Both the position numbers and the translations under genes were made by a program. Positions 40,554-54,471 of a DNA stretch of 64,000 bases are shown one piece after another. Source of the DNA: a virus. How positions within the stretch are numbered: position 1 is the first letter of the stretch; the number at the start of each line of letters is the position of its first letter. The stretch is from IMG/VR virus record IMGVR_UViG_3300014202_000564. One strand, 5' to 3'. The notes below the pieces were generated by a model, which worked only from the letters and a program-made list of their open reading frames with translations, made no database searches and was not told the DNA's origin.

Positions 40554-40555
40554 CG

Positions 40556-41336: not shown

Positions 41337-41345
41337 GAGGCAATC

Positions 41346-41552: not shown

Positions 41553-41584
41553 GAGATCCTTGAACACATGGAGGAAGGCGTCTC

Positions 41585-41779: not shown

Positions 41780-41783
41780 TGGC

Positions 41784-41810
41784 GAAACAATCAAAAAGAA
41801 TAGGAGCAAT
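41784..41810 (+). repeat. 27-nt direct repeat, copy 1
   Basis: GAAACAATCAAAAAGAATAGGAGCAAT, identical to 42038-42064. Confidence 0.8.
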
Positions 41811-41817
41811 AGGAGAG

Positions 41818-42033: not shown

Positions 42034-42037
42034 TGGT

Positions 42038-42064
42038 GAAACAATCAAAAAGAATAGGAGCAAT
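42038..42064 (+). repeat. 27-nt direct repeat, copy 2
   Basis: GAAACAATCAAAAAGAATAGGAGCAAT; supplies the RBS of ATG 42068. Confidence 0.8.
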
Positions 42065-42067
42065 CAC

Positions 42068-42289
42068 ATGAAAGATGCACTAGGAAAAACGATTACAAAG
42101 GGATGCAAGATAGCAGGACTTGCACTCAGTTCATGGACTACGCCGTGGTTCTATGTCGGAAAGATTTCGGGAATGTCAAAACGGACTGACTCAGTGTATG
42201 TGAAGGTTGCAGGTGAGGAATTTCTTGTTCCTGCAGGGGAATGTGTCGTTGTGAAATCGGCACGGCGTGTATCCAAAAAGATACAGTGA
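42068..42289 (+). CDS. hypothetical protein
   Basis: 73-aa track ORF. Confidence 0.55.
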   Translation: MKDALGKTITKGCKIAGLALSSWTTPWFYVGKISGMSKRTDSVYVKVAGEEFLVPAGECVVVKSARRVSKKIQ

Positions 42290-42323
42290 CAATAATTGTC
42301 ATATTTTTAATGTTTCTGGTGAC

Positions 42324-42387
42324 TTGACAAGATTGGCATATATGCTAGACTCAGAATGTAAGGGAAATAAACAAGGGAGGTAGAAAG
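42324..42387 (+). promoter_or_regulatory. early-promoter cassette (no ATCATGATGA box)
   Basis: TTGACA 42324, N16, TGcTAGACT (-10 at 42346-42351), GGGAGG RBS; same layout as 57743-57808. Confidence 0.6.
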
Positions 42388-42948
42388 ATGGCATATATGA
42401 GTCAAGAGAAAAAGAAGAAGATTGCTGAGGAGCTGAAGAAGGCACTCAAGGGAACCGGACTCAAGTATACCTTGGGGGTACACAATCACAGCACATTGGT
42501 GATGAACATCAAGAGCGGTCCAATTGATTTCATCGGTAACCATGTCAAGACCATGTTGGATAAAGCGTATACGTTGCAAGATTACCAGAAAGAAGCAATC
42601 GAAGCTTTGCCCAAACAAGGGTACATGGATATCAATCATTATTGGTATCATGAGCATTTCACTGGGGTTGCGCTGGAAGTCATGAAGAAGATCATCGATA
42701 CCATGCACATTGGAAACCATGATAACAGTGATCCGATGACGGACTACTTCGATGTGGGATGGTATGTTGATGTCAACGTAGGGAAATGGGAGAAGCCCTA
42801 TGTATGCACTGCTCATGATCCGGCGATTGAGGATGCAATACAGAACGCGAAGGATGCCAAGAAGGTGGAATTGGAAAAGAAGATTGTGGAGTTGAAGGAT
42901 CAATTGAATCAAGCGGTGGTCCAGTATCAGGAGTTGGTAGCAGCATAG
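42388..42948 (+). CDS. hypothetical protein (paralog of 57809-58222)
   Basis: MAYMSQEKKKKIAEELKKALKGTGLKYTLGVHNHSTL vs MAYMSQERKKEIAEQLKKVLAGTGIKYTLGVDNHSTL; adds a C-terminal coiled extension. Confidence 0.7.
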   Translation: MAYMSQEKKKKIAEELKKALKGTGLKYTLGVHNHSTLVMNIKSGPIDFIGNHVKTMLDKAYTLQDYQKEAIEALPKQGYMDINHYWYHEHFTGVALEVMKKIIDTMHIGNHDNSDPMTDYFDVGWYVDVNVGKWEKPYVCTAHDPAIEDAIQNAKDAKKVELEKKIVELKDQLNQAVVQYQELVAA

Positions 42949-42980
42949 GGGGACATGCGGATAGAGAGAAAGGAACCAGG

Positions 42981-43193
42981 ATGATCAAGGTGCACAAACC
43001 AAACAACATCTATGCCGTATTGAGTGATCATGATTTTTTGATCTGCAAGGAGATCGGTGAAGGACAACTTCGTGCAGTGCATAGTTCTATAACACATGCT
43101 CGCGCTCAGGAAACCATCATGGAGTGGGGTGAATTGAGGAGCATTGTGTATGCGATTGTACCGAGAAAAGATGTTGAATGGGTGGAGTGGTGA
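42981..43193 (+). CDS. hypothetical protein
   Basis: 70-aa track ORF. Confidence 0.55.
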   Translation: MIKVHKPNNIYAVLSDHDFLICKEIGEGQLRAVHSSITHARAQETIMEWGELRSIVYAIVPRKDVEWVEW

Positions 43194-43396
43194 GAAAACA
43201 CAAAAAGACCATGCAGGGGCGCTGGCTTCTAGAGTGGTGGGACGAAACCAGCATGTATGATCCAGAGGGGGTTTGGCAAGGTGGATCTGAGTGCTACATG
43301 AGATTCTATCGAGCATGGATTCCAAACAGCATTAAGCGTCATGATGTCGATGAACAGATGAACTATTTGGAGACACACCCTCAAGCGTATGTATGA
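43178..43396 (+). CDS. hypothetical protein
   Basis: 72-aa track ORF; 16-nt overlap with the upstream ORF. Confidence 0.5.
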   Translation: MGGVVRKHKKTMQGRWLLEWWDETSMYDPEGVWQGGSECYMRFYRAWIPNSIKRHDVDEQMNYLETHPQAYV

Positions 43397-43397
43397 C

Positions 43398-43498
43398 TGT
43401 ATCCTTTTAGATACACCCGAAAATTTGATACTTGACTTTCCTGGCACCTATGGTATTCTTAGATCATGATGATGAACAAGAAAACCAAGGGGGAAACG
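43398..43498 (+). promoter_or_regulatory. hairpin + early-promoter cassette
   Basis: TGTATC-CTTTTA-GATACA 43398-43415; TTGACT 43432, N16, TGgTATTCT (-10 at 43454-43459); ATG 43466 (+7, in frame); AACAAGAAAACCAAGGGGGA. Confidence 0.7.
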
Positions 43499-43966
43499 AT
43501 GAAGACACCAACACTCGCTGCGTTTAAATTGTGGGCGAAGGTCAACAAGGAACTTGCGTTGATGGTCTGTAAAGCTCAAGCACAGGCAGAGCTGGTGCGG
43601 GAACATGTTGACTCGTATACACAACCAATCTTCGAAACCTACGGGTTCAAGGTTGATGCCGACATCACAAAGGGGATGACGGATTACGGACGGCCCCTCG
43701 ATAAACCTTCTGACCTGTACTTGACGGATGACCCCAGGGTGACAGAGTACTATGCAGCATGTGACAAAGCACACAAAGAGCAGGGGTACGATGTGCAAGC
43801 GGGGTATTGCCCAGCACTTGTTGCAGAGCATGAGCTGATTAAGATCCAGAATCAGCTCTTAGAGAGTGGTGCTAAATTGATGGGGATCGAGGACATCCCA
43901 GTATATGGAAAAAATCGAGTGGACATGTTGAAGCTCTTGATCGGTGCATGTACCGCAAAGCAATAG
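43499..43966 (+). CDS. hypothetical protein
   Basis: ATG 43499 follows AAGGGGGA; track start 43466 is the in-frame +7 ATG. Confidence 0.65.
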   Translation: MKTPTLAAFKLWAKVNKELALMVCKAQAQAELVREHVDSYTQPIFETYGFKVDADITKGMTDYGRPLDKPSDLYLTDDPRVTEYYAACDKAHKEQGYDVQAGYCPALVAEHELIKIQNQLLESGAKLMGIEDIPVYGKNRVDMLKLLIGACTAKQ

Positions 43967-43978
43967 GAGAAGAGGAAC

Positions 43979-44173
43979 ATGGGAATCTGGTTTCAAAAGA
44001 CCACAGATAAAAGCGCAGTGATCTATCGAGTCAATGACCGGTATCTCTATGATGTCTATGCACTTTGGATGGGTCGCTATGGTAAACTTGTCAATGGTCC
44101 GTTGTTGCAGACCGGCAGCATGGATACACTTGAACAAGCAAAGAGGATGTGTTTGTCTTATTTGTACGCATAA
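43979..44173 (+). CDS. hypothetical protein
   Basis: 64-aa track ORF behind AGGAG. Confidence 0.55.
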   Translation: MGIWFQKTTDKSAVIYRVNDRYLYDVYALWMGRYGKLVNGPLLQTGSMDTLEQAKRMCLSYLYA

Positions 44174-44248
44174 TGGCAAATAAACCACTAGCCCAAGGTG
44201 ATACCATGTAACCGATATCTGGCATTTAACTTTTAACATGGAGACATT

Positions 44249-44485
44249 ATGAAAACCGAGATCGAGACAGTGACAGTGACATACTGCAGAGATTTTACTT
44301 GTTCAGTCTGCCGAAAAAGTGAAATGGGTCCAAAGGTGACGATGGTTTATCATGGTGGTGGGTTGCCGGGCACAAGTATGCTGCGGTTCAATGCGAGATA
44401 TTCGTATCCAAAGGGATGGAACTGTGTGACAGCTAGAGAAGATGGGTTGATTCTCTATACCTGTGTCTCATGTATCAAACAATAA
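44249..44485 (+). CDS. hypothetical Cys-rich protein
   Basis: 78 aa; CSVC...CVSC pairs; GGAG RBS. Confidence 0.55.
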   Translation: MKTEIETVTVTYCRDFTCSVCRKSEMGPKVTMVYHGGGLPGTSMLRFNARYSYPKGWNCVTAREDGLILYTCVSCIKQ

Positions 44486-44487
44486 GC

Positions 44488-44533
44488 TTGACAAGCTCTC
44501 TACCACTTGATAGACTCTGAATCGGAGGCGGTG
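44488..44533 (+). promoter_or_regulatory. early-promoter cassette (no ATCATGATGA box)
   Basis: TTGACA 44488, N17, TGaTAGACT (-10 at 44511-44516), GGAGG. Confidence 0.55.
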
Positions 44534-44911
44534 ATGACAGACGAAAATCTACAAGAAATTATAGAAGATGTGGATAGAGAGATGGAGCGGTATTGGGTGA
44601 GATCGGGTGAACAGGTCACAATGAGGCGCGTCTTGACTGATGGTGAGTTTGTCGTCAGTCGAATCCTCATGCAGGGTGAGATCGCGCAAGCGTTGAATGA
44701 TAAGAAGATCTGGGCACTCTTTTGCTTGGTCGATATCTCAAACGGGTCGATCTATGAAGAACCGGTGCCGATCATGAGTGAGGGGTATATCGATCTGCGG
44801 CGGTTGATGGGATCTACCAAGATTGTGTACATGAATACGAGGGGGTTTGTGAGGACCTATAAAGCAACAGCACATGATGGGTACGAATTCATTATGAAGG
44901 TGAAACGATGA
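44534..44911 (+). CDS. hypothetical protein (paralog of 40787-41185)
   Basis: ATG 44534 follows GGAGG; shared PVPIMSEGYIDLRRL core. Confidence 0.65.
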   Translation: MTDENLQEIIEDVDREMERYWVRSGEQVTMRRVLTDGEFVVSRILMQGEIAQALNDKKIWALFCLVDISNGSIYEEPVPIMSEGYIDLRRLMGSTKIVYMNTRGFVRTYKATAHDGYEFIMKVKR

Positions 44912-45087
44912 TAGCACTCTATGTTCGAACGGTGGGGATGGAAGTTGGAAAACGCTACCGGTCTCTGGAAGTGGTTGGTGAGTTTTCCTATGATGGTGCA
45001 CAATACTGGCATCATACGGTCCTTGGTGAAACGGTGCACATTCACCCGGATCTTAGATCTATCTGGATTCCGAAGGACCCAGCATGA
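44908..45087 (+). CDS. hypothetical small protein
   Basis: 59 aa; ATGA overlaps at both ends; preferred over track ORF 44921-45127 in another frame. Confidence 0.45.
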   Translation: MIALYVRTVGMEVGKRYRSLEVVGEFSYDGAQYWHHTVLGETVHIHPDLRSIWIPKDPA

Positions 45088-45335
45088 AGAAGATGACGCG
45101 ACAGGATGCTATCTCTCTATTGAATAGAACACTTGAAGATGTAGCATTTTATCGTTTTGAAACTAAAGTCTTACTGAACCGTGATCATGCAAATTCACAT
45201 GAAATATTGATACTCCTTCTTTCGAAACTGAAGGAAGTCGAGGAGAAGTTAGATCGGGTGTTAGATGAAGCGGGGGTCAATGAAGCGTCCAATAAAGCAA
45301 TTGAGGAATTGATGAAACGGGGGATACAACCATGA
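45084..45335 (+). CDS. hypothetical protein
   Basis: 83-aa track ORF. Confidence 0.55.
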   Translation: MKKMTRQDAISLLNRTLEDVAFYRFETKVLLNRDHANSHEILILLLSKLKEVEEKLDRVLDEAGVNEASNKAIEELMKRGIQP

Positions 45336-45508
45336 GTAAGGATACACTATGGGAATTTCGCGCCGTGTTGTGGTTGATGTTTGCGTTTATATTGTCACAT
45401 GATGATCGAGGGGGTTGGATGCAACTCATTGCGCTTGCCTTAGCGGGGGTGTCAATATTCATGTCCCTACTCCATCTGGTAGTCGATTACTATATTAACC
45501 GGAAGTAG
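45332..45508 (+). CDS. small membrane protein
   Basis: 58 aa, two TM; ATGA overlap with the upstream gene. Confidence 0.45.
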   Translation: MSKDTLWEFRAVLWLMFAFILSHDDRGGWMQLIALALAGVSIFMSLLHLVVDYYINRK

Positions 45509-45510
45509 CG

Positions 45511-45626
45511 GTGTATCTAAAAGGATACACTTTAAACATGAGTGTTTGGAGACCCCTTGACAAGATTGGCAGCTATGGTATGATTAGACCATGATGATGA
45601 TGAACAACAAAACCAAGGGGGAAATC
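45511..45626 (+). promoter_or_regulatory. hairpin + early-promoter cassette
   Basis: GTGTATC-TAAAAG-GATACAC 45511-45530; TTGACA 45557, N16, TGgTATGAT (-10 at 45579-45584); ATG 45591 (+7, in frame); AACAACAAAACCAAGGGGGA. Confidence 0.7.
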
Positions 45627-45938
45627 ATGGAACATCTGACAACCAAGATCGAGGCGCTTGCGGTTGAGTTGAACAAGCTGGAAGCTGAGGATTTTGCTCG
45701 AAGGGGTTTCACACATCCCCATGATAGATGGCACTTGAAGAAGGTGGGGAAAAAGTTCGCATACCTGGATTGTGGTGGGTCTGGTGCATTTCTGGTTGAA
45801 AGTGCAACAGGGGAATTGTACAATATTAAAGGATATGGAGTGCCGGATTACAACAAGAAAAAGAAAGCGGATATCGGGAACATTGCAACAGTGAATCCGA
45901 GGGAGTTGCATGCAAGACGGTGGAACTACCTTCGATAG
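45627..45938 (+). CDS. hypothetical protein
   Basis: ATG 45627 follows AAGGGGGA (track start 45591). Confidence 0.65.
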   Translation: MEHLTTKIEALAVELNKLEAEDFARRGFTHPHDRWHLKKVGKKFAYLDCGGSGAFLVESATGELYNIKGYGVPDYNKKKKADIGNIATVNPRELHARRWNYLR

Positions 45939-45950
45939 GAGTATTCAACA

Positions 45951-46115
45951 ATGAGAATGCAAAAAGCAAACTACCGCACAGTCTACCGAGTCATTGTGAA
46001 CGGACTCATGCAAGAGGAATACGAGTCCAAGTCACTTGCGGAACGTGATGTGAAACAAGCGCAAGCACAGGGGAAGGATGCGTATGTGTATACAGCATCC
46101 GTTGTGGAGTACTGA
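45951..46115 (+). CDS. hypothetical small protein
   Basis: 54 aa, below the track cutoff; AGGAG-like RBS; fills a gap. Confidence 0.4.
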   Translation: MRMQKANYRTVYRVIVNGLMQEEYESKSLAERDVKQAQAQGKDAYVYTASVVEY

Positions 46116-46118
46116 GTC

Positions 46119-46283
46119 ATGAGGAAAGAAAAGAAGTGTCCAGGTCTGCATGCCAGGGATTGTGATAATCCCCGTTCGAAGACGCTACACACTTGTCCAT
46201 ACAAAGAAGATCTGTATGCCGATCTGGGCACAATGTGTGCATGTTGTGATGACTGTAGGAAACGATGTCAAGATGAGACCTAA
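46119..46283 (+). CDS. small Cys-rich protein
   Basis: 54 aa with 8 Cys (CACCDDCRKRC); its 3' end overlaps ATG 46273. Confidence 0.4.
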   Translation: MRKEKKCPGLHARDCDNPRSKTLHTCPYKEDLYADLGTMCACCDDCRKRCQDET

Positions 46284-46797
46284 CTGGCACGGTCCTATGT
46301 ATCGCGTGGTGTCTGGTGTGCAGAGTCCTGCCGCAATGCGGTTGCGCTACAAAGTTTTCGCTGAAGAATTGCACTGGATACCGGAGACCCCAGACCGACA
46401 GGACCAGGATGAATATGATGCACAGTGTATGCCCTACGCGGTGTATATGGATGATGCACCAATCGCGTATGCTCGCGTGATTCATGAAGAACACCAATAT
46501 ATGATCGAAAAAGATTTTCTTGATGTGCTGCCCACCCCATTCAATAAAAAGAGCAGCGCGGAAGTTTCGCGTCTCTGTGTTGATCCATTTGTGCGTCATG
46601 ATGGGTTTCCTATCGTCTCGATGCTGTTGAAGAGTATCCATAGGGATCTGAAATCGCTGGGTGTGGAGTATGCGTATTTTGTGACGATTGCGCCAGTGGT
46701 TCGAGTGCTACGGAGGATTGGGGTGCCGGTGCATGTGTTGGTGAAGACGGAGAGTAAGTTATCTGCAGTTGTGAATATTTCCGAATGGATCTATTAG
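46273..46797 (+). CDS. GNAT-fold N-acyltransferase of the autoinducer-synthase (LuxI) / N-acyl-amino-acid synthase type
   Basis: RLRYKVFAEELHWIPETPDRQDQDEYD ... AEVSRLCVDP follows the R..vF..elgW......E.DeyD and S-R-l-x-V pattern; start ATG 46273 (track 46150). Confidence 0.5.
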   Translation: MRPNWHGPMYRVVSGVQSPAAMRLRYKVFAEELHWIPETPDRQDQDEYDAQCMPYAVYMDDAPIAYARVIHEEHQYMIEKDFLDVLPTPFNKKSSAEVSRLCVDPFVRHDGFPIVSMLLKSIHRDLKSLGVEYAYFVTIAPVVRVLRRIGVPVHVLVKTESKLSAVVNISEWIY

Positions 46798-46805
46798 GGG
46801 GACGT

Positions 46806-47270
46806 ATGGAACTTGTGACACAAATCTACGGTGTGATGTGGATGATAGTGATTGCTATGTTGGTTGTGGTGTTCTGCTCTATCGCGGTGCTCAGTGTGCG
46901 CGATTCTCGTAGAAAAGCAGCAGATCTAGACCGACGCTCTAAATTACATGGTCGGTATGACGTGTCCGGTATTTCTGTATCGGTCAATGGGTATCATGGC
47001 ATCATTACAAACATGAGTCTCATGGGAGCAGGAATTACTCTCGATGAACCCATTTCACCATTGCATCAGGGTCCGTATGTGAGGATCAAACTGAAATCTG
47101 ATGATGAAGTCACGATTATCAGCATGAATGCTTGGCTCACCAAAACACAAACCTACAGTATGAGACAGATCCATGTGGTATTCGATACACATGACGCACT
47201 GTCTTACCGTGAGGAACTATCTGCTCTTATCACCCACTACTGGATGCGAAAACATAGTGTATCCTTTTAG
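46806..47270 (+). CDS. membrane-anchored PilZ-like protein
   Basis: N-terminal TM; DRRSKLHGR ... ITNMSLMGAGITL gives a good (D/N)xSxxG motif but a non-canonical RxxxR. Confidence 0.5.
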   Translation: MELVTQIYGVMWMIVIAMLVVVFCSIAVLSVRDSRRKAADLDRRSKLHGRYDVSGISVSVNGYHGIITNMSLMGAGITLDEPISPLHQGPYVRIKLKSDDEVTIISMNAWLTKTQTYSMRQIHVVFDTHDALSYREELSALITHYWMRKHSVSF

Positions 47271-47348
47271 ATACACCCCCCTTGACACTATCCGTTGATA
47301 TGGTATTCTTAGATCATGATGATGAACAAGAAAACCAAGGGGGAGAAC
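47257..47348 (+). promoter_or_regulatory. hairpin + early-promoter cassette
   Basis: GTGTATC-CTTTTA-GATACAC 47257-47276 (contains stop 47268-47270); TTGACA 47282, N16, TGgTATTCT (-10 at 47304-47309); ATG 47316 (+7, in frame). Confidence 0.7.
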
Positions 47349-47492
47349 ATGAAAAAAATCGCTGGGAAGACTGCGAAGTGGGTATTGTGCGTTGAAGAGA
47401 AGATTGTCGAGTGTGTAACCTACCAAGAAGCGAAACTACGAATGATTGAGTACGAAGCAGCAGGAAGACCCTGTTACATCGAACCCAAGTAA
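47349..47492 (+). CDS. hypothetical small protein
   Basis: 47 aa behind AAGGGGGAG; extends to 47316 if the +7 ATG is used. Confidence 0.45.
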   Translation: MKKIAGKTAKWVLCVEEKIVECVTYQEAKLRMIEYEAAGRPCYIEPK

Positions 47493-47526
47493 ATCGGCAA
47501 CCATTAGGAAATCTTAGAAAGGGTTA

Positions 47527-49485
47527 GTGAAAATGATGACGAGTTTGGTAGTTACGGGTATTTGGTTGATGGTAATTTTTGCCGCAGTGGTATCAAAACA
47601 ACGAAAAGTCGCATTGATGTTGAGCGGTCTGCTCTATGTGCGCTACATGGTCTGGCGTGTCACTGAAACAATCCCCACTGATGAAACGTGGTCATTGGTT
47701 GCAGGTATTGTTTTGTGGGGTGCAGAGTTATATGGGACCATTCAGTTTGGATTTTTTGCGTTTCAAACTTGGCATGGGTTTCATACAACCCCCAAACCGG
47801 ACAAGGTTGAACCTCTTAGTGTGGATATGTTTGTCTGTGTGGTCCAAGAACCCATTGAACTCCTGAGACAAACTGTTTATGGTTGTTTGATGCAGCGGGG
47901 TCGGTACTCCATCACTGTTCACATTTTGGATGATGGAAAGCGCGAATCAGTGCGACTGTTGGCAGAGGAATTGGGGTGTCGCTATCACACCCGGACCAAT
48001 ACTCCCCAACATGCGAAAGCTGGGAATATTAATGCGGCATTACCTCGAACATCTGGGGATGTGATTGCAATATTTGACGTGGATCATGTACCCACAGAAA
48101 ACTTTGTGCAGGAGACACTACCTCATTTTAGTGATCCTAAAGTGGCGATGGTGCAAACTTCACAACACTTCTATAATCCTGACATCTTTCAATCTGGGCT
48201 ATCGCGGAAGATTCAGAACGAACAGGAACTCTTTTTCTCTGTCCTGCAACCTGGGAGAAATGCACACAATAGCGCATTCTTCGCGGGGTCTGGTGGGTTG
48301 GTGCGCCGATCGGCTCTATTGGAAATTGGTGGCTTCATGACTCAGACGATTACCGAGGATATCCATACAAGCATGGAACTCCATTCGCGGGGATGGAAAT
48401 CGGTCCATGTGAATCAACCCTTATCAGCAGGACTCATGCCGGAAACGTTTCATGGGTATGTGAAGCAGCGGAAGCGGTGGGCGATTGGATGTATGCAAGT
48501 GTTCTTTGGTGACAATCCGTTATTGAAGCGCGGGTTGACGTGGCAACAGCGGATCGATTATCTTGGATCAATGTTCTACTTCATGTTTGGGTTTCCTCGT
48601 ATGATCGGGTTGGTTGCACCACTAACAATGCTTTTGTTTGGAATCACCCCAGTTGCAACCGATCTGTGGCACCTAGTGATACAATTTGGTGCAGTGTACC
48701 TGGCACTCATTGCCACCATGCATCTTTCTGTTGCTAGGATGCGCAATCCGTTTGCTTCTGATATCTATGAAGTAGCGATGGCACCAAGTCTGTGTCGAGC
48801 AGCATTGTCGATTTGTTTTCCTCGAAAAGAACGAGTGTTTGAAGTTACCCCAAAGGGTGAGCAGCAGGATCATGGGGCGAGCATGTGGGCACCCACGTAT
48901 CCTTTGATGGTGCTTGCTTGTTTGTTGGGGTTGGGTATAATCCTGGGTGCATTTGAATTGCAGAGTGGGGATTATCATCTTGGAGTTCCATATGCGATGG
49001 TCTGGGCAACTATCAATCTGGGGATGGTACTTGCAGCTCTTTGGACAGCTCAACCAACAGAGCATCGCCGCGGTGCATTCCGTCATGTGCGGCAGGGGTT
49101 GCATAACATTCCCGCTCTGATAGGTGCAGAATATGGAAAGGTGTATGATTTGAGCATGACCGGTGCAGCAATAACCCTGACATCAATGTCACCAAAATTC
49201 TTGGTGGGGAAGCGGGTTCCGGTTGCATTTAATGATGAAGATGTGGGTATAGTATTTGTGCTCATGGCAACCATTGTTCGTCTAGATGGTATGCGGGTGT
49301 CGGTGAAATTTGATTCGGAGGATATGAAACATGTGGAAGGTCAACTTATCACTCTACTGTTTGGTCATAGTGGAGTGTGGGAAGATGAACGCGGGTTGAA
49401 AGTTTACCCAGAGTTAGAAACCTCTGCAGTGCAGCAAATTGAAACGCATGTGGCACAGGACCAACAACGAAGGGAGTTGTTATGA
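47527..49485 (+). CDS. bcsA: cellulose-synthase-like processive GT2 with C-terminal PilZ domain (BcsA-like)
   Basis: LDDG, HAKAGNIN, FDVDH, QTSQHF, FFAGSG, TEDIHTS, QRKRWAIG (QxxRW); multiple TM spans; PilZ RRGAFR + DLSMTGAAI. Confidence 0.85.
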   Translation: MKMMTSLVVTGIWLMVIFAAVVSKQRKVALMLSGLLYVRYMVWRVTETIPTDETWSLVAGIVLWGAELYGTIQFGFFAFQTWHGFHTTPKPDKVEPLSVDMFVCVVQEPIELLRQTVYGCLMQRGRYSITVHILDDGKRESVRLLAEELGCRYHTRTNTPQHAKAGNINAALPRTSGDVIAIFDVDHVPTENFVQETLPHFSDPKVAMVQTSQHFYNPDIFQSGLSRKIQNEQELFFSVLQPGRNAHNSAFFAGSGGLVRRSALLEIGGFMTQTITEDIHTSMELHSRGWKSVHVNQPLSAGLMPETFHGYVKQRKRWAIGCMQVFFGDNPLLKRGLTWQQRIDYLGSMFYFMFGFPRMIGLVAPLTMLLFGITPVATDLWHLVIQFGAVYLALIATMHLSVARMRNPFASDIYEVAMAPSLCRAALSICFPRKERVFEVTPKGEQQDHGASMWAPTYPLMVLACLLGLGIILGAFELQSGDYHLGVPYAMVWATINLGMVLAALWTAQPTEHRRGAFRHVRQGLHNIPALIGAEYGKVYDLSMTGAAITLTSMSPKFLVGKRVPVAFNDEDVGIVFVLMATIVRLDGMRVSVKFDSEDMKHVEGQLITLLFGHSGVWEDERGLKVYPELETSAVQQIETHVAQDQQRRELL

Positions 49486-49901
49486 AATATGTGGTGGTGA
49501 AGACTGAGTTTGATGATCTGGTGCCGATTATATTTCCTGAGACCATTCCACATAGGACGATTCCAAAAGAGAGTTACAACCATACTGCAGTGAGTGCTGG
49601 GTTTTGTGCTCTCAAGCAAGGCAAATGGGTTGCGTATGGGGAAAGTATAGGTCTTAAATTGAAATCTAGACCGGAGGATACCGATTTACTAAATCGCCAT
49701 TTTAGTGACACTGATACAAAACATGAGGTTGAACATTTGAAGGCTCATGTGTTCGGGATGCTGCAGATTATTGAGTTGATGAATAATAATGCACTACCGA
49801 AAGACTACGCGACTCTGAACAACTTGCAACACTGGATTGATAGTGCTCGAAAGGCAGCAAATGGTAACTGTATCCAAAAAGATACACCCACCAAAACATG
49901 A
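49482..49901 (+). CDS. hypothetical protein
   Basis: 139-aa track ORF; ATGA overlap with the bcsA-like stop. Confidence 0.6.
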   Translation: MKYVVVKTEFDDLVPIIFPETIPHRTIPKESYNHTAVSAGFCALKQGKWVAYGESIGLKLKSRPEDTDLLNRHFSDTDTKHEVEHLKAHVFGMLQIIELMNNNALPKDYATLNNLQHWIDSARKAANGNCIQKDTPTKT

Positions 49902-49938
49902 CGCTTGACAGACCGGTGGGATGTGGTAGACTTAAATC
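49869..49938 (+). promoter_or_regulatory. hairpin + early-promoter cassette
   Basis: TGTATC-CAAAAA-GATACA 49869-49886 (inside the upstream ORF 3' end); TTGACA 49905, N16, TGgTAGACT (-10 at 49927-49932). Confidence 0.65.
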
Positions 49939-50103
49939 ATGATGAATATGACGAAAATAAAAGAATTGGTTCTAGACTGTGAACGGTTGGTCAAGCGGGT
50001 AGAGCGTTTGGTTGAAGCGGATGCAGCAGATGATGTGTTCTTTGCAGCACTGAGGGTACCAAAAGAGTTGGTGGGGATAAGCCTAAAGAATGCCCAAAAG
50101 TGA
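49939..50103 (+). CDS. hypothetical small protein (candidate leaderless start)
   Basis: 54 aa; ATG 49939 lies exactly 7 nt after the -10; no RBS. Confidence 0.4.
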   Translation: MMNMTKIKELVLDCERLVKRVERLVEADAADDVFFAALRVPKELVGISLKNAQK

Positions 50104-50109
50104 GGGCCA

Positions 50110-50256
50110 ATGGAACCCTGTGAATGTGAACAATTACGAACACTTGTGGATAAGCTGATTGATGTTGCCGATAACGCGACTCCAATCCATTTCATGAGGG
50201 AACTTGACAAGGTGGTGACGGAAGCGAAAGAGATCCGTCGAAGGGGGAATCAATGA
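50110..50256 (+). CDS. hypothetical small protein
   Basis: 48 aa, below the track cutoff; stop overlaps the next ATG. Confidence 0.35.
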   Translation: MEPCECEQLRTLVDKLIDVADNATPIHFMRELDKVVTEAKEIRRRGNQ

Positions 50257-50405
50257 AGCTCGTATGCGCATGGTGTCTACAAGAGGGGAAACCTGCGGAT
50301 ATGGGGGACAAGGAACCCCTAGACGATACGCGGGTGAGTCATACGATCTGTGATGATCATTTTAAGCAGTTTGATGCTCAATATGGGGACCCACATAAGA
50401 CTTGA
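50253..50405 (+). CDS. small Cys-containing protein
   Basis: 50 aa; CAWC...CDDH; stop lies inside the next -35. Confidence 0.35.
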   Translation: MKLVCAWCLQEGKPADMGDKEPLDDTRVSHTICDDHFKQFDAQYGDPHKT

Positions 50406-50470
50406 CAATTTGGACGGGTGTGGTAGACTTAAATCATGATGAATGACCAACAAAACAAAGGGGTGAAATC
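50402..50470 (+). promoter_or_regulatory. early-promoter cassette
   Basis: TTGACA 50402, N16, TGgTAGACT (-10 at 50424-50429); ATG 50436 (+7); mini-ORF stop overlaps ATG 50471. Confidence 0.65.
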
Positions 50471-50620
50471 ATGAGGATGATTATTACGGGGGTGGTGCTT
50501 GGTATAGTGATGTTCATCATGTATACGACAGCAAGTATGACGAAGGATGCAGCAGAGGGGGCGAAGAAGCTGGTTGAAAGTCGGAATGCAATGATCGAGG
50601 AGATCTTAAAGGAGCAATAA
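50471..50620 (+). CDS. small membrane protein
   Basis: 49 aa; N-terminal TM; AAAGGGGTGA RBS. Confidence 0.45.
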   Translation: MRMIITGVVLGIVMFIMYTTASMTKDAAEGAKKLVESRNAMIEEILKEQ

Positions 50621-50622
50621 CA

Positions 50623-50817
50623 GTGGCAACGATTAAAATCAAAACCACATACCAACCATACTTTGGGTGGAATGCGATTGACGAGAACACCTATGATGGT
50701 GCACCAGACAGCATTAATAAGGAATGCGGAACCGGTGAGACCGAAGAAGAAGCGATCAATGACTTACTAGAGCAATTGACGGAACGAGATACCCTGGAGG
50801 ATGAAGATTATGGATAA
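50623..50817 (+). CDS. hypothetical acidic protein
   Basis: 64-aa track ORF; GTG start 8 nt after AAAGGAG. Confidence 0.5.
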   Translation: MATIKIKTTYQPYFGWNAIDENTYDGAPDSINKECGTGETEEEAINDLLEQLTERDTLEDEDYG

Positions 50818-50965
50818 GATGACGAGGACGGAAGTGCATAGTCTTCTTGTTCAGGTGACCGAGGCAAAAGCGGTCCTGGCTGCGGCACAATCGCATTATG
50901 ACAAGCTTTATCATCGGTTGTGGAACGAGATCCAGCAGCATTATCCAATCGAACCTAGGAACTAG
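50810..50965 (+). CDS. hypothetical small protein
   Basis: 51 aa; overlaps the upstream stop. Confidence 0.4.
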   Translation: MDKMTRTEVHSLLVQVTEAKAVLAAAQSHYDKLYHRLWNEIQQHYPIEPRN

Positions 50966-51076
50966 TGTATCTAAAATGATACACCCAGAAAGTATATATT
51001 TGAGGACTTGACATTCTGGCAGACTTTGTTATACTCAGATCATGATGAATGACAAACATAACAAAGGGGTGAACTG
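50965..51076 (+). promoter_or_regulatory. hairpin + early-promoter cassette
   Basis: GTGTATC-TAAAAT-GATACAC 50965-50984; TTGACA 51008, N16, TGtTATACT (-10 at 51030-51035); ATG 51042 (+7); mini-ORF stop overlaps ATG 51077. Confidence 0.7.
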
Positions 51077-51346
51077 ATGGGACGCTCTATTACTCCAAAA
51101 TACCGAATGGAATTTGTTGATAGCCAGGGTGTGAAGGTTCAGATGTGCTGGAAGGGGAAAGCAACGGAAAAATCTTTGGGGGAGTGGGTTTTCGCCTATC
51201 ATGAGTCGATGAAGTCTGGTGGTTGCAATGCGCACATTCCTCAATCTCTTGGGGTGTTTCCTGCGGTAAACAAAGCCAAGGTGATTCGACAGGTTGACAA
51301 TGCGGTTGTTGCAACCTGGAATGCACCAATGTTCATGGTGATTTGA
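51077..51346 (+). CDS. hypothetical protein
   Basis: 89-aa track ORF. Confidence 0.6.
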   Translation: MGRSITPKYRMEFVDSQGVKVQMCWKGKATEKSLGEWVFAYHESMKSGGCNAHIPQSLGVFPAVNKAKVIRQVDNAVVATWNAPMFMVI

Positions 51347-52514: not shown

Positions 52515-52765
52515 GGATCAATAGAAAAAAGCTTCTTGTCCGATGGAGCAAAAAGGAGAATGATTTTTTCATTAGCTATCCATCCAGACCGGATGGGCAT
52601 CTAGCATCCAATGTGCTCTTCTCTAAGAGAATGTACCCAAAGTTTGGTGATAGGAAACCTGGTGAATTTCCTTGGGATTTTGACCCTTCGTTTATTGAGG
52701 AACTTGAGAAGAGGGGATACGACACCAAGACTCTAAGATTATCTGTGGAATTGAAGAAGACTTGA
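52487..52765 (+). CDS. hypothetical protein
   Basis: 92-aa track ORF. Confidence 0.55.
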   Translation: MVAEVGDSVRINRKKLLVRWSKKENDFFISYPSRPDGHLASNVLFSKRMYPKFGDRKPGEFPWDFDPSFIEELEKRGYDTKTLRLSVELKKT

Positions 52766-52799
52766 CAGGCGCCAGGGAGTTTGGTATCATGGAGATATT
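52762..52799 (+). promoter_or_regulatory. early-promoter cassette (short)
   Basis: TTGACA 52762 (overlaps the upstream stop), N17, TGgTATCAT (-10 at 52785-52790), GGAG. Confidence 0.5.
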
Positions 52800-53787: not shown

Positions 53788-54471
53788 ATGAAACGAAATC
53801 TAATGAAGAAGGACACAGCACCCATGAATATCATCCTAAGTGTGATATTATTGATTCTTCTTCAACCTAGTGTTGTTCTTGCCGGGGATGTGTTCACTGG
53901 GTTTCAGAGTGACATGTATAAGCAGTATTTTGGTTACCTAGGCGCTCGAACACATCTATCAGAGCAAGTGTTTATTCAAGGATTGACTGGTGGATTTGGA
54001 TATGGTGAGCATGACAAAGGTGGACAAACACTCCATACAGATGTCCAGTTCATGAACCTAGGAATAGGATTGGAAAAGAAAATACAATCGTATGCATTTG
54101 CGGCAATGATTGGTGCATCGGGTCGTAGGGTCGATTCCAACAATTCGGACCATAATCGAGCTGGGGCATTTGTGCAGCTAGAAGCTGGTCATTGGGGGGA
54201 ACGAATTAGTGTACAGGGAATGCTGAACTATGTGACAATGGACAATTTTTTCTGGGGACGCATTCGGAGTATGTACCGAACTGGTGAATATATATCTGCG
54301 GGTATGGATGTTGTGGCAATGGGTAATGCAGGATATTATGCAGTTCAAACTGGACCGGTCGTTGGTGTTCCTGTGGGTCCAGTGAATGTAAATCTTAAGG
54401 GTGGATATCAGAGAGACAGCACGTTCAGAGACGGAGCATATAGTGGCATTGAGTTGGGACTTCATTTTTAA
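53788..54471 (+). CDS. outer-membrane beta-barrel-like protein
   Basis: Sec signal peptide ending VVLA-GD; alternating Gly/aromatic strands; C-terminal GIELGLHF ends in Phe. Confidence 0.5.
   Translation: MKRNLMKKDTAPMNIILSVILLILLQPSVVLAGDVFTGFQSDMYKQYFGYLGARTHLSEQVFIQGLTGGFGYGEHDKGGQTLHTDVQFMNLGIGLEKKIQSYAFAAMIGASGRRVDSNNSDHNRAGAFVQLEAGHWGERISVQGMLNYVTMDNFFWGRIRSMYRTGEYISAGMDVVAMGNAGYYAVQTGPVVGVPVGPVNVNLKGGYQRDSTFRDGAYSGIELGLHF

What the first reader, a model, noticed from the sequence alone, without database searches (positions are those of the whole stretch)
46119..49485. Phage-borne c-di-GMP / polysaccharide module: LuxI-like acyltransferase, PilZ-like protein and BcsA-like synthase with PilZ
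One cassette-bounded segment encodes three relevant products. (a) 46273-46797 is a GNAT-fold autoinducer-synthase-like / N-acyl-amino-acid-synthase-like enzyme. (b) 46806-47270 is a TM-anchored PilZ-like protein. (c) 47527-49485 is a 652-aa multi-TM GT2 carrying every hallmark I know for bacterial cellulose synthase BcsA: DDG, HAKAGNIN, DVDH, QTSQHF, FFAGSG, TED and QRKRW. It also has a C-terminal PilZ domain with canonical RRGAFR and DLSMTGAAI. No bcsB/C/Z partner is present in the window. A phage-encoded c-di-GMP-gated exopolysaccharide synthase could remodel the infected cell surface, for example for superinfection exclusion, receptor masking or matrix production. It could also act as a c-di-GMP sink. 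I am not aware of a characterised example.
Basis: partly seen in the sequence, partly recalled or inferred. Interest (0 to 1): 0.8.

Follow-up and report, generated by a model that had tools for sequence, protein, structure and literature searches.

The report
Phage-borne Nitrospira-type glycan synthase module
A novel T4-like phage carries an intact, probably c-di-GMP-gated cellulose-synthase-like enzyme and, 4 kb away, the small outer-membrane-type partner (BcsS) that accompanies it in Nitrospira, so the phage probably makes its infected host secrete a sugar polymer.

Summary
Bases 47533-49485 encode a 650-aa BcsA-family synthase with every catalytic, gating-loop and PilZ motif (TIGR03030 1.6e-143; 2.4e-87 to solved E. 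coli BcsA; the model's top 8 fold matches are BcsA, TM 0.63-0.70).

The window is a new T4-like phage. It has gp43 polymerase, UvsX, helicase, primase and RNR, with no close relative in INPHARED or IMG/VR.

New points:
- **Partner gene.** A BcsS-like gene lies at 53788-54471. It is 35-41% identical to the gene directly downstream of the closest cellular BcsA homologues in 11 of 11 Nitrospiraceae loci, none of which has bcsB nearby.
- **Second phage.** A syntenic phage (Logan, 150 kb) carries bcsS-bcsA side by side. The two phage BcsA pair together (bootstrap 100) and are sister to the Nitrospiraceae clade (78).
- **Lost domain.** Both phage enzymes lack the host's second PilZ.
- **Two units, not one.** The GNAT/small-PilZ genes and bcsA lie in two successive early-promoter cassettes.
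- **GNAT.** It is LuxI/N-acyl-amino-acid-synthase-like but unassignable.
- **Small TM-PilZ.** It is an orphan with only sub-threshold PilZ support.
- **Precedent.** Cyanophage S-CBWM1 gp157/gp158 is an uncharacterised HlyD partner plus GT2-PilZ synthase.

Verdict: a real, host-derived exopolysaccharide module and a new variant of a known kind. Its role in infection is inferred.

The parts
45510..45626 (+). Regulatory cassette 1. Stem-loop GTGTATC-TAAAAG-GATACAC (45511-45530). Sigma-70-type promoter TTGACA(45557)-N16-TG-TATGAT(45584). Conserved leader ...GATGATGATGAACAACAAAACCAAGGGGGAAATC with an RBS.
   Evidence: Read directly. Member of repeat families D1 and D5. Promoter scan 11/12 with an extended -10 TG.
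45627..45938 (+). First gene of the unit: a 103-aa conserved phage hypothetical protein.
   Evidence: 62% identical to the product of L001/L002 776-1102. No Pfam or PHROG family.
45951..46283 (+). Two 54-aa ORFs, 45951-46115 and 46119-46283. The second is Cys-rich. Function unknown.
   Evidence: no family match.
46273..46797 (+). GNAT-fold acyltransferase of the LuxI / N-acyl-amino-acid-synthase branch. 174 aa from the ATG at 46273. The JGI call starts at 46216 (193 aa).
   Evidence: Pfam Autoind_synth 40.4 bits (cutoff 24), Acetyltransf_5 38.4, FeeM 26.8. NCBIfam exosortase-associated acyltransferase 1.1e-8 and TraI 4e-7, both far below cutoffs. Best solved relative is the AHL synthase TofI, 3p2f, 5.5e-5. 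No homologue found by word search of 5.8e9 proteins or in INPHARED.
46806..47270 (+). 154-aa orphan protein: an N-terminal TM helix, a basic linker with RDSRR, then a beta-rich domain with NMSLMG and a C-terminal helix. A PilZ-like candidate.
   Evidence: Pfam PilZ 5e-4, 20.8 bits, below the 22.5 cutoff. Motifs. Weak blastp match to TM8 plus the first PilZ of Nitrospira BcsA (1.6e-4 in a 120-sequence database). No homologue in 5.8e9 or 1.84e9 proteins. hhalign not significant. AF2 pLDDT 52.
47256..47348 (+). Regulatory cassette 2. Stem-loop AGTGTATCC-TTTT-AGATACACC (47256-47277). Promoter TTGACA(47282)-N16-TG-TATTCT(47309). Leader with RBS AAGGGGGA.
   Evidence: (D1, D2, D5, D7).
47349..47492 (+). 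47-aa ORF, the first gene of the bcsA unit. Function unknown.
47533..49485 (+). BcsA-family processive GT2 glycan synthase/translocase with a C-terminal PilZ, 650 aa. Motifs: DDG133-135, HAKAGN160-165, DVDH182-185, FFAGSG249-254, TED274-276, E304, QRKRW312-316, FEVTPK436-441, RGAFR513-517, DLSMTG539-544.
   Evidence: The closest cellular relatives are Nitrospira.
49482..49901 (+). 139-aa ORF overlapping the bcsA stop codon (ATGA), probably translationally coupled. Function unknown.
   Evidence: Only a weak phrog_3988 hit, 2.3e-7. No Pfam family.
52762..52790 (+). Promoter-like site TTGACA-N17-TG-TATCAT upstream of the gene run that ends in bcsS.
   Evidence: 11/12 match, TG present. Consensus match only.
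53788..54471 (+). BcsS-family protein, 227 aa. It has an N-terminal signal-peptide-like segment (...VVLA|GDVFTGF) and a C-terminal ...GIELGLHF. Predicted to be a secreted or outer-membrane beta-rich partner of the synthase.
   Evidence: Pfam CBP_BcsS 27.2 bits, cutoff 24. 35-41% identical (43% over the best segment) to the gene directly downstream of BcsA-like in 11 Nitrospiraceae loci. 34-36% identical to the bcsS of phage L001.

Best explanation
The window is part of a new T4-like phage (about 169 kb, GC about 43%). The phage has captured and long retained the two-gene, BcsB-less exopolysaccharide secretion module typical of Nitrospiraceae.

The two parts are:
- an inner-membrane BcsA-family synthase/translocase with a PilZ switch (47533-49485);
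- a BcsS-family envelope partner (53788-54471).

Proposed mechanism:
1. Early in infection the host sigma-70 RNA polymerase reads the TTGACA/extended -10 promoters of the repeated cassettes.
2. The synthase inserts into the inner membrane. It polymerises a UDP-sugar, most probably UDP-glucose into a beta-glucan, through its own TM channel.
3. Host c-di-GMP binds R513/R517 and D539/S541/G544 of PilZ. This breaks the R513-E304 tether and frees the FEVTPK gating loop, as in R. sphaeroides BcsA.
4. BcsS handles the polymer at the outer envelope.

The net effect is a phage-driven glycan coat or matrix on the infected cell. Its likely use is to hold the cell in the floc or biofilm next to new hosts, to mask receptors against superinfection, or both.

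Shown: gene identity, intact motifs, the partner gene, phage context, the Nitrospiraceae affinity, and conservation in two phages.
Inferred: sugar and linkage, c-di-GMP dependence, BcsS function and location, timing of expression, benefit to the phage, and the host.

The neighbouring LuxI-like GNAT and the TM-PilZ-like orphan are early genes of the adjacent unit. Any link between them and the synthase is unproven.
For: **Identity.**
- TIGR03030 1.6e-143 and PRK11498 3e-108.
- 2.4e-87 to E. coli BcsA over aa 26-593, and 4e-81 to R. sphaeroides BcsA.
- AF2 model: pLDDT 68, pTM 0.64. The top 8 Foldseek hits are all BcsA (E 1e-27 to 2.5e-34, TM 0.63-0.70). Plant CesA follows at 0.47-0.49.
- The catalytic, gating and PilZ residues are invariant across 59 homologues: D133, D134, D182, T274, E275, D276, E304, Q312, R313, R315, W316, F436, T439, K441, R513, R517 and G544.

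**Partner.**
- BcsS-like gene in the window.
- The same gene lies directly downstream of BcsA-like in 11 of 11 Nitrospiraceae loci with enough flank.
- BcsB is absent from the window, from both phage loci and from those Nitrospiraceae loci. The same queries found it in the proteobacterial control loci.

**Phage context.**
- gp43-type polymerase 5.5e-303, UvsX, DnaB-like helicase, primase and RNR.
- The best phage polymerase match is 49%.
- GC3 of bcsA and bcsS is 45.5 and 36, against 76 and 74 in Nitrospira.

**Retention under selection.**
- A second syntenic phage, L001/L002, has bcsS and bcsA adjacent.
- The phage pair has bootstrap 100 and is sister to the Nitrospiraceae clade at 78.5.
- The GT domain is 70% identical between the two phages; PilZ is 22%.

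**Expression.** At least 10 promoter cassettes, including those at 45553 and 47278.
Against: - No experiment exists; the product, c-di-GMP binding and expression are all unmeasured.
- The protein scores below NCBIfam's equivalog cutoffs (479 vs 699; 363 vs 992). It has FFAGSG and QTSQHF where classical BcsA has FFCGS and QTPHHF, so the polymer may not be cellulose.
- Characterised BcsA needs BcsB for activity (Omadjela et al. 2013, as cited in PMC8892547). No BcsB is present here, and BcsS is functionally uncharacterised (PMC8892547).
- bcsA and bcsS are 4.3 kb apart in this phage, in different transcription units.
- The PilZ domain evolves fast. In the sister phage the DxSxxG motif is degenerate (EHSKPG), so c-di-GMP gating may not be essential.
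- The host assignment rests on two genes only. The phage GC is about 18 points below that of Nitrospira.
- The sister-clade bootstrap is only 78.5, from a neighbour-joining tree.
Confidence: 0.6

Rival explanations
1. c-di-GMP sponge or decoy. The phage proteins mainly bind c-di-GMP, or poison the host synthase complex, to switch off host biofilm or defence signalling. Polymer synthesis would be irrelevant.
For: Up to two PilZ-type modules lie in adjacent units, the BcsA C-terminus and the small TM-PilZ-like protein. The phage BcsA PilZ has more canonical motifs (RRGAFR, DLSMTG) than the first PilZ of the host enzymes (GRxAFR, NxNExG). No diguanylate cyclase or phosphodiesterase motif occurs in the window.
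Against: The GT domain is the most conserved part (70% between the phages, 62-64% to Nitrospira) and PilZ the least (22%). All catalytic residues are invariant. The sister phage has a degenerate DxSxxG but keeps the catalytic motifs and bcsS. Retaining a secreted or outer-membrane partner makes no sense for a cytoplasmic sponge.
Confidence: 0.1
2. An active synthase with a different purpose or product. Examples: a non-cellulosic glycan (mixed-linkage or beta-1,3 glucan, or an amino-sugar polymer), or a drain on the UDP-sugar pool. Such a drain could starve host envelope synthesis or a competitor's DNA glycosylation.
For: Scores lie below the cellulose-synthase equivalog cutoffs. The motif variants FFAGSG and QTSQHF are shared with the Nitrospiraceae clade. 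The clade lacks BcsB. The phage also carries its own sugar-nucleotide genes, a HAD+NTP_transferase fusion and a GT4.
Against: The TM channel, gating loop and BcsS partner all point to export of a polymer, not mere substrate consumption. The closest solved folds are BcsA, not hyaluronan or chitin synthases. Nothing measures pools.
Confidence: 0.15
3. The genes are not really phage genes: an assembly chimera, or a host island or prophage remnant, with Nitrospira DNA joined to a phage contig.
For: The closest homologues of bcsA and bcsS are cellular. The lineage is absent from INPHARED and IMG/VR.
Against: The genes are embedded between phage early-promoter cassettes on the same strand. Their composition is the phage's (GC3 36-46% vs 74-76% in Nitrospira). 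Identity to Nitrospira proteins is only 41-50%. An independent assembly of a different syntenic phage, from another data source, carries both genes. The same protein is recorded on 5 JGI contigs of up to 168,789 bp.
Confidence: 0.02
4. The GNAT, the TM-PilZ-like protein and BcsA form one functional module. The acyltransferase would make an acyl signal, or acylate the glycan or a lipid. The small PilZ would supply in trans the second PilZ that the phage synthase has lost.
For: The genes are adjacent, on the same strand, in successive early cassettes. The host enzymes have a second PilZ that both phage enzymes lack. The small protein weakly resembles TM8 plus PilZ of Nitrospira BcsA. The GNAT's best NCBIfam hit is an exosortase/EPS-associated acyltransferase family.
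Against: The sister phage shows neither gene in the 15.7 kb around its bcsS-bcsA. Both proteins are orphans. The PilZ assignment of the small protein is sub-threshold. A terminator-like stem-loop and a separate promoter divide the units.
Confidence: 0.2

Closest known systems
Bacterial cellulose synthase BcsA (R. sphaeroides 4HG6/4P00; E. coli 7LBY/9FMV)
   Same: Same domain order: N-terminal TM helices, a GT2 domain with DDG / DxD / TED / QxxRW, interface helices, the FxVTxK gating loop, more TM helices, then a C-terminal PilZ with RxxxR and DxSxxG. The Glu (E304) that tethers the PilZ Arg in the resting state is also present. Sequence E 2.4e-87; fold TM 0.63-0.70.
   Different: Only 29-34% identical. 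The N-terminus is shorter (the alignment starts at E. coli residue 201). FFAGSG replaces FFCGS, and QTSQHF replaces QTPHHF. It scores below the NCBIfam equivalog cutoffs. There is no BcsB; a BcsS-family gene is the partner. It is encoded by a lytic-type phage.
Nitrospiraceae BcsA-like + BcsS-like gene pair (e.g. N. moscoviensis NZ_CP011801, locus L008; annotated only as 'glycosyltransferase' or 'cellulose synthase (UDP-forming)')
   Same: These are the closest relatives of both phage genes: BcsA 41-50%, BcsS 35-41%. They share the motif variants and the absence of a neighbouring bcsB.
   Different: The host enzymes are about 760 aa with a second C-terminal PilZ (Pfam 28 bits in P0003) that the phage enzymes lack. 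In the hosts the genes are adjacent in the order A-S. In this phage they are 4.3 kb apart, and in the sister phage the order is S-A. The phage copies have phage-like codon composition. The host system is itself uncharacterised.
Synechococcus phage S-CBWM1 gp157/gp158 (MG450654; 'multidrug efflux membrane protein' + 'putative cellulose synthase')
   Same: A cultured phage that carries a GT2 + Cellulose_synt + PilZ (6.5e-11) synthase next to a host-type export partner. This is the same general idea: a phage-borne, PilZ-bearing, synthase-dependent glycan module.
   Different: 34% identity over the GT region only. The partner is an HlyD-family membrane-fusion protein (the cyanobacterial type), not BcsS. 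The phage lineage (Aokuangvirus) and the host phylum differ. I found no functional study in the held literature.
LuxI-type AHL synthases (TofI 3P2F, LasI 1RO5) and N-acyl amino acid synthases (FeeM; PEP-CTERM/exosortase-associated TIGR03694)
   Same: The GNAT aligns with TofI over residues 24-155. The alignment includes the RYxVF...W, DxYD, AR(L/V) and E-x-SR signature positions. Pfam Autoind_synth is above its cutoff.
   Different: Scores of 28-35 bits lie against equivalog cutoffs of 112-292. It is shorter (174 aa) and has no detectable homologue. No LuxR-type gene was identified nearby. The substrate cannot be told. Prophage-encoded LuxI/LuxR pairs have been described (PMC13345283), so a phage LuxI-like gene is not unprecedented.
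PeSL-type mobile regulatory cassettes of T4-type phages (from memory: Arbiol et al. 2010, Genome Biol Evol)
   Same: The repeated unit has a stem-loop, a sigma-70 early promoter and a conserved leader with an RBS. It sits between small early genes in the hyperplastic region, in at least 10 copies.
   Different: The sequence family is specific to this phage. Function was not tested, and the comparison rests on recalled literature.

Membership tests
BcsA (bacterial cellulose synthase catalytic subunit) | GT2 catalytic core with the D, DxD, TED and QxxRW motifs | tested here: met
   DDG133-135, DVD182-184, TED274-276 and QRKRW312-316. They are invariant in 59 homologues and align with E. coli BcsA.
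BcsA (bacterial cellulose synthase catalytic subunit) | Membrane channel fold with interface helices and the FxVTxK gating loop | tested here: met
   FEVTPK436-441. In the AF2 model (pLDDT 68) the top 8 Foldseek hits are BcsA at TM 0.63-0.70.
BcsA (bacterial cellulose synthase catalytic subunit) | C-terminal PilZ with RxxxR and (D/N)xSxxG | tested here: met
   Pfam PilZ 32.2 bits, cutoff 22.5. RGAFR513-517 and DLSMTG539-544.
BcsA (bacterial cellulose synthase catalytic subunit) | Score above the curated equivalog cutoff (TIGR03030 / PRK11498) | tested here: not met
   479.3 bits vs 699.1, and 362.9 vs 992. It is a homologue, not a certified equivalog.
BcsA (bacterial cellulose synthase catalytic subunit) | Co-catalytic partner BcsB encoded alongside | tested here: not met
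   Seven diverse BcsB queries hit the proteobacterial control loci. None hit the window, the sister phage or 10 Nitrospiraceae loci. No unassigned ORF in the window is of BcsB size.
BcsA (bacterial cellulose synthase catalytic subunit) | Product is beta-1,4-glucan made from UDP-glucose, activated by c-di-GMP | not testable with these tools
   Needs expression, linkage analysis and binding assays.
BcsS (PF17036, accessory Bcs subunit) | Profile match above the gathering score, and linkage to a bcsA gene | tested here: met
   27.2 bits vs 24. The orthologue is adjacent to BcsA-like in 11 Nitrospiraceae loci and in the sister phage.
PilZ domain (PF07238), for the 154-aa protein at 46806-47270 | Profile match above the gathering score | tested here: not met
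   20.8 bits vs 22.5, E 5e-4. hhalign against the BcsA family gave probability 1.6%.
PilZ domain (PF07238), for the 154-aa protein at 46806-47270 | RxxxR and (D/N)xSxxG c-di-GMP motifs | tested here: met
   RDSRR32-36 and NMSLMG69-74. Among ORFs of 60 aa or more in six frames, only this ORF, BcsA and one spurious minus-strand ORF carry the combined pattern.
PilZ domain (PF07238), for the 154-aa protein at 46806-47270 | [quoted passage not shown] | tested here: inconclusive
   The single-sequence AF2 model shows 6-7 strands (56-124) then a helix (131-149), but pLDDT there is 24-48. No homologues exist to build an alignment.
LuxI-type acyl-homoserine-lactone synthase (PF00765), for the GNAT | Profile match above the gathering score, and signature residues | tested here: met
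   40.4 bits vs 24. The alignment with TofI keeps the R/F/W N-terminal block, DxYD, AR and ExSR.
LuxI-type acyl-homoserine-lactone synthase (PF00765), for the GNAT | Equivalog-level score that separates it from N-acyl amino acid synthases | tested here: not met
   TraI models score 27.7-29.7 bits vs cutoffs of 250-292. The exosortase-associated acyltransferase model scores higher (34.8), and Acetyltransf_5 scores 38.4.
LuxI-type acyl-homoserine-lactone synthase (PF00765), for the GNAT | Cognate LuxR-type receptor gene nearby; AHL production | not tested
   The neighbouring ORFs that I scanned had no Autoind_bind or GerE hit. Not every small ORF was scanned. The chemistry needs an experiment.
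T4-like phages (Straboviridae/Kyanoviridae-type replication module) | gp43-type polymerase, UvsX, replicative helicase, primase and RNR in one block | tested here: met
   PHROG hits from 5.5e-303 down to 8.8e-71. The best match to cyanomyovirus gp43 is 49%. Structural genes lie outside the window, so they were not examined.

The most novel reading that the evidence does not exclude
BcsA-BcsS is a minimal, BcsB-independent, two-protein glycan secretion system confined to Nitrospiraceae and their phages. This phage runs its own rewired version. The synthase is stripped of the host's second PilZ. It is expressed from early cassettes next to a TM-anchored PilZ-like protein and a LuxI-like acyltransferase. 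Together these would let a lytic phage of a key nitrite oxidiser take control of aggregation and matrix production, and possibly of acyl signalling, in nitrifying flocs and biofilms.
Probability: 0.2. Interest if true: 0.8.

Novelty: new variant of a known kind. Interest (0 to 1): 0.55.

Why it matters
**Host clue.** I know of no cultured phage of Nitrospira (my own knowledge; my literature searches did not test this directly). Nitrospira is the main nitrite oxidiser in wastewater treatment, drinking-water filters and soils, and it lives in dense EPS-embedded microcolonies. A phage-borne copy of a Nitrospiraceae-specific synthase and partner pair is a concrete host-linkage clue. It also suggests that phages manipulate matrix production in nitrifying biofilms.

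**A compact test system.** The pair could show whether a BcsA-family synthase can work without BcsB, and what the uncharacterised BcsS subunit does. The phage versions are short, AT-richer and easy to synthesise.

**Regulatory evolution.** The host enzyme has tandem PilZ domains, this phage has a single canonical PilZ, and the sister phage has a degenerate one. That gives a natural series for studying how c-di-GMP gating is tuned or lost.

**Limits on novelty.** EPS genes are already listed as viral auxiliary genes (PMC13092590, PMC7532657). Cyanophage S-CBWM1 already carries a GT2-PilZ synthase.

Tried and rejected
**Searches that found nothing.**
- Megablast of 45.5-50 kb and of 1-25 kb against INPHARED: no match.
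- Exact-protein contig look-ups for the window BcsA, P0001 and P0110: not on record.
- IMG/VR scans with the BcsA protein, the BcsA alignment, the BcsS alignment and the DUF6011 neighbour. No relatives were found, apart from one unrelated 62%-GC phage that shares only the DUF6011 domain.
- JGI metagenome scan: only a distant 28% fragment.
- Cluster look-up for sample accessions: none given.
- tblastn of the GNAT and of BcsS against INPHARED: no match.
- Homologue searches for the small PilZ-like protein (word-indexed 5.8e9 proteins, and the full HMMER scan of 1.84e9 representatives) and for the GNAT (word-indexed only): self only.

**Tests that were uninformative.**
- hhalign of the small protein against the BcsA family: not significant.
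- Single-sequence AF2 of the small protein: pLDDT 52, too poor for a fold search.
- Motif scan for GGDEF, EAL and HD-GYP in all six frames: nothing credible.

**Ideas rejected.**
- Assembly chimera: rejected on composition, cassettes and the second phage.
- Pure c-di-GMP sponge: disfavoured because the GT domain is far more conserved than PilZ.

**Literature.** Searches for a characterised phage BcsA or PilZ, and for the S-CBWM1 cellulose synthase, gave only AMG lists.

Full report
**1. The observation**

All three ORFs are present on the + strand.

The large ORF is 47527-49485. Its probable start is the ATG at 47533, eight bases after AAAGGG, and this matches the 650-aa JGI gene call P0001.

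- Pfam gives Glyco_trans_2_3 9.9e-27, Glyco_tranf_2_3 8.7e-24, Cellulose_synt 2.4e-11 and PilZ 1.5e-7 (32.2 bits, cutoff 22.5).
- NCBIfam gives TIGR03030 (CelA) 1.6e-143 and PRK11498 3.1e-108. Both are below the curated equivalog cutoffs: 479 vs 699 bits and 363 vs 992.
- Against solved structures it aligns almost end to end with E. coli BcsA (2.4e-87; residues 26-593 vs 201-774) and with R. sphaeroides BcsA (4e-81).
- An AlphaFold2 model built on 59 homologues has mean pLDDT 68 and pTM 0.64. Its eight best PDB matches are all BcsA (E 1e-27 to 2.5e-34, TM 0.63-0.70). Plant CesA follows at 0.47-0.49, then chlorovirus hyaluronan synthase at about 0.42.

The protein passes that test.

**2. It is phage DNA**

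The window encodes:
- a gp43-type DNA polymerase (phrog_262, 5.5e-303);
- a UvsX-like recombinase;
- a DnaB-like helicase;
- a primase;
- a class I ribonucleotide reductase.

Nearly all long ORFs are on one strand. The polymerase is at most 49% identical to any phage in INPHARED, and the best matches are cyanomyoviruses. Megablast finds nothing. This is a new, deeply branching T4-like phage. The same BcsA protein is recorded on five JGI contigs, the longest 168,789 bp.

**3. Transcription units**

Between 39.0 and 51.1 kb there are at least ten copies of a cassette. Each copy has three parts:
- a stem-loop (TGTATCC-TTTTAG-ATACA);
- a TTGACA-N16/17-TG-n-TATTCT / TAGACT / TATGAT promoter;
- a conserved leader ending in AAGGGGGA and an ATG.

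They resemble the promoter-early stem-loop cassettes of T4-type phages; that comparison rests on my recollection of Arbiol et al. 2010.

| Cassette | Genes that follow |
|---|---|
| 45510-45626 | 45627-45938, two 54-aa ORFs, the GNAT (46273-46797), the small PilZ-like gene (46806-47270) |
| 47256-47348 | a 47-aa ORF, bcsA (47533-49485), an overlapping 139-aa ORF (49482-49901) |

Both probably have early, sigma-70-type promoters. This is inferred from consensus matches only.

**4.

The closest cellular homologues of the synthase are 45-50% identical proteins of about 760 aa from Nitrospira and Nitrospirota. They are annotated "glycosyltransferase" or "cellulose synthase (UDP-forming)".

In a Nitrospira contig the gene is followed by a 238-aa gene that matches Pfam CBP_BcsS weakly. 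tblastn with that protein finds a clear homologue in the window at 53788-54471 (43% identity, 2e-39). The window protein matches CBP_BcsS above the gathering score (27.2 vs 24). It has a signal-peptide-like N-terminus and ends in ...GLHF.

I scanned one genome per GTDB species. BcsS-like lies directly downstream of BcsA-like in all 11 Nitrospiraceae loci with enough flank (L003, 4, 6-11, 16, 29, 61), and in none of the other loci.

BcsB was then tested with seven queries from diverse Proteobacteria and Myxococcota. These queries detect one another's loci. They find nothing in the window, in the sister phage or in the Nitrospiraceae loci.

BcsS is listed in the literature only as an accessory Bcs component of unknown role (PMC8892547).

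**5. A second phage with the same module**

The nearest relative of the window's synthase is P0002 (52% identity). It sits on Logan contigs of 55,658 and 150,228 bp, fetched as L001 and L002. These contigs are syntenic with window 45.6-63.4 kb, at 33-79% protein identity. The shared genes include the DUF6011 protein, an RF-1-domain protein, an RNA ligase and a phosphoribosyltransferase. The contigs also carry NAMPT.

In that phage bcsS (3028-3684; CBP_BcsS 2.7e-8) lies immediately upstream of bcsA (3721-5760). This is the genome position where the window keeps only bcsS. In the window, bcsA sits about 6 kb upstream, within a segment (about 45.95-51.9 kb) most of which has no counterpart in L001/L002. 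That segment also holds the GNAT and the small PilZ-like gene. Neither of those two genes is seen in the 15.7 kb available for the sister phage.

**6. Origin**

I built a neighbour-joining tree of 78 BcsA homologues on 667 columns and bootstrapped a 27-sequence subset on the same columns.

| Grouping | Bootstrap (of 200) |
|---|---|
| The two phage proteins together | 100% |
| The Nitrospiraceae BcsA-BcsS clade | 98.5% |
| Phage pair as sister to that clade | 78.5% |

Classical proteobacterial BcsA is 32-37% identical.

The phage genes are fully adapted to phage composition. GC3 is 45.5% for bcsA and 36% for bcsS in the window, and 35.6% and 33.8% in L001. In Nitrospira it is 76% and 74%. This points to an old capture, not a chimera, most simply a single one in a common ancestor of the two phages. 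A Nitrospiraceae-like host is the best inference, but it rests on these two genes.

**7. What changed in the phage copies**

The host enzymes carry two PilZ-type modules.
- The first has GRxAFR and NxNExG.
- A C-terminal extension of about 110 aa has RRRxxR and DMSFTG. Pfam recognises it as PilZ: 28 bits in P0003, and 19-22 bits in two others.

Both phage enzymes end before this second domain.
- The window enzyme's single PilZ is canonical: RRGAFR and DLSMTG.
- The sister phage has RRKSHR but EHSKPG, and its PilZ is sub-threshold (20.4 bits).

Identity between the two phage enzymes, by domain:

| Region | Identity |
|---|---|
| GT domain | 70% |
| Membrane region | 52-57% |
| PilZ | 22% |

E304 lies eight residues before QRKRW, the position of R. 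sphaeroides E371. E304, R513 and R517 are invariant in 59 sequences. The autoinhibitory Glu-Arg tether and the gating loop described for R. sphaeroides BcsA are therefore in place. The residue equivalence is my inference from motif spacing and established knowledge of Morgan et al. 2014.

Strong conservation of the catalytic half, together with retention of bcsS in both phages, argues for an active synthase and against a c-di-GMP sponge.

**8. The GNAT**

Pfam Autoind_synth (40.4 bits) and Acetyltransf_5 (38.4) are both above their cutoffs. FeeM (26.8) is just below its cutoff.

NCBIfam's best hit is the PEP-CTERM/exosortase-associated acyltransferase family (34.8 bits vs a cutoff of 112). The TraI AHL-synthase models follow at 28-30 bits vs cutoffs of 250-292.

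The best solved relative is the AHL synthase TofI (5.5e-5). The N-terminal R/F/W block, DxYD, AR and ExSR positions are all aligned.

No homologue was found by word search of 5.8e9 proteins or in INPHARED. It is a divergent member of the LuxI / N-acyl-amino-acid-synthase branch, and the acyl acceptor cannot be told. Prophage LuxI/LuxR pairs are already described (PMC13345283).

**9. The small PilZ-like protein**

Over 154 aa it has an N-terminal TM helix (the only confident part of the AF2 model), then RDSRR, then a beta-rich region with NMSLMG, then a C-terminal helix. This layout mimics the TM8-linker-PilZ end of BcsA. blastp gives a weak hit to exactly that part of a Nitrospira enzyme (1.6e-4 in a 120-sequence database).

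The evidence against a firm call is substantial:
- Pfam PilZ is below its cutoff.
- hhalign is not significant.
- The model is poor, at pLDDT 52.
- There is no homologue at all in 1.84e9 representative proteins.

I treat it as a candidate, not a member.

**10. Precedent and novelty**

PHROGs holds two "unknown function" families that match the synthase at 1e-80 and 1e-78.

The cultured cyanophage S-CBWM1 encodes gp158, a 724-aa GT2 + Cellulose_synt + PilZ (6.5e-11) protein annotated "putative cellulose synthase". It lies directly after gp157, an HlyD-family membrane-fusion protein. That is the cyanobacterial type of synthase and partner pair.

bcsA also appears in lists of viral auxiliary genes (PMC13092590, PMC7532657). 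I found no functional study of any of these.

The general idea is therefore known at the annotation level. Four things are new here:
- the Nitrospiraceae-type BcsA-BcsS pair;
- its conservation in a new T4-like lineage;
- the loss of the second PilZ;
- the company of a LuxI-like enzyme and a TM-PilZ-like orphan.

**11. Mechanism and confidence**

I am about 90% confident that this is a phage-borne, intact BcsA-family synthase with a cognate BcsS partner of Nitrospiraceae type.

I put about 60% on the full account: early expression, c-di-GMP-gated synthesis and export of a beta-glucan-type polymer by the infected cell.

The benefit to the phage is speculation. Candidates are retention in the floc next to new hosts, receptor masking and protection. 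The polymer's identity, BcsB independence, the role of BcsS and the host all need experiments.

Noticed in passing
window 39010-51079 (copies at 39010, 40007, 41188, 42320, 43428, 45553, 47278, 49901, 50399, 51005); promoter-like site at 52762: At least ten copies of a regulatory cassette between small early genes. Each has a stem-loop, a TTGACA-N16/17-TG-n-TATTCT/TAGACT promoter and a conserved leader with an AAGGGGGA RBS. They look like the PeSL cassettes thought to drive gene shuffling in T4-type phages. The bcsA-containing segment, absent at this position in the sister phage, is flanked by them.
   Followed up: partly
window 42388-42948 vs 57809-58222: Two paralogous genes, 71-72% nucleotide identity over about 330 nt, lie 15.4 kb apart. 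Function unknown: a weak Rv2743c-family hit for one and nothing for the other.
   Followed up: no
window 9904-21862: A sugar-nucleotide / glycosylation-type cluster inside the replication module. It holds DUF6267 (1.4e-109), a GT4 glycosyltransferase (12046-13071), a HAD + NTP_transferase fusion (13741-15114), a SAM methyltransferase (16593-17330) and a 703-aa Zeta-toxin/AAA kinase-like protein with PHROG 'cytidyltransferase' hits. It may serve DNA hypermodification or nucleotide-sugar supply. If the latter, it could feed the synthase.
   Followed up: partly
window 59495-63120: A set of translation-rescue / RNA-repair genes: a phosphoribosyltransferase (59495-60070), a PTH2-like peptidyl-tRNA hydrolase (60067-60405), an RF-1-domain (ArfB-like) protein (62081-62503) and an RNA ligase (62485-63120). 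All are conserved at 40-73% in the sister phage L001/L002, which also has NAMPT and PRPP-synthase-like genes.
   Followed up: partly
Nitrospira proteins P0003, P0081, P0110 (C-terminal about 110 aa); loci L003-L011, L016, L029, L061: The Nitrospiraceae BcsA-like synthases carry a second C-terminal PilZ (tandem PilZ). They are always followed by a BcsS-like gene and never by bcsB within 5 kb. This looks like an undescribed BcsB-less two-gene Bcs variant in nitrite oxidisers. Some Nitrospira genomes (L035, L046) also hold a second, distant BcsA paralogue.
   Followed up: partly
L086 (Synechococcus phage S-CBWM1, MG450654, 113415-116767): gp157 (HlyD-family membrane-fusion protein) and gp158 (GT2 + PilZ 'putative cellulose synthase') form a cyanobacterial-type synthase module in a cultured phage. 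I found no functional work on it in the held literature.
   Followed up: partly
window 49482-49901: A 139-aa ORF whose ATG overlaps the bcsA stop codon (ATGA), so it is probably translationally coupled to the synthase. Its only match is a weak phrog_3988 hit (2.3e-7), and it has no counterpart next to bcsA in the sister phage.
   Followed up: no
window 46119-46283: A 54-aa Cys-rich ORF (8 Cys, with C..C and CC..C spacing) that overlaps the GNAT start by 11 nt. It could be a small zinc-binding protein. No family match.
   Followed up: no
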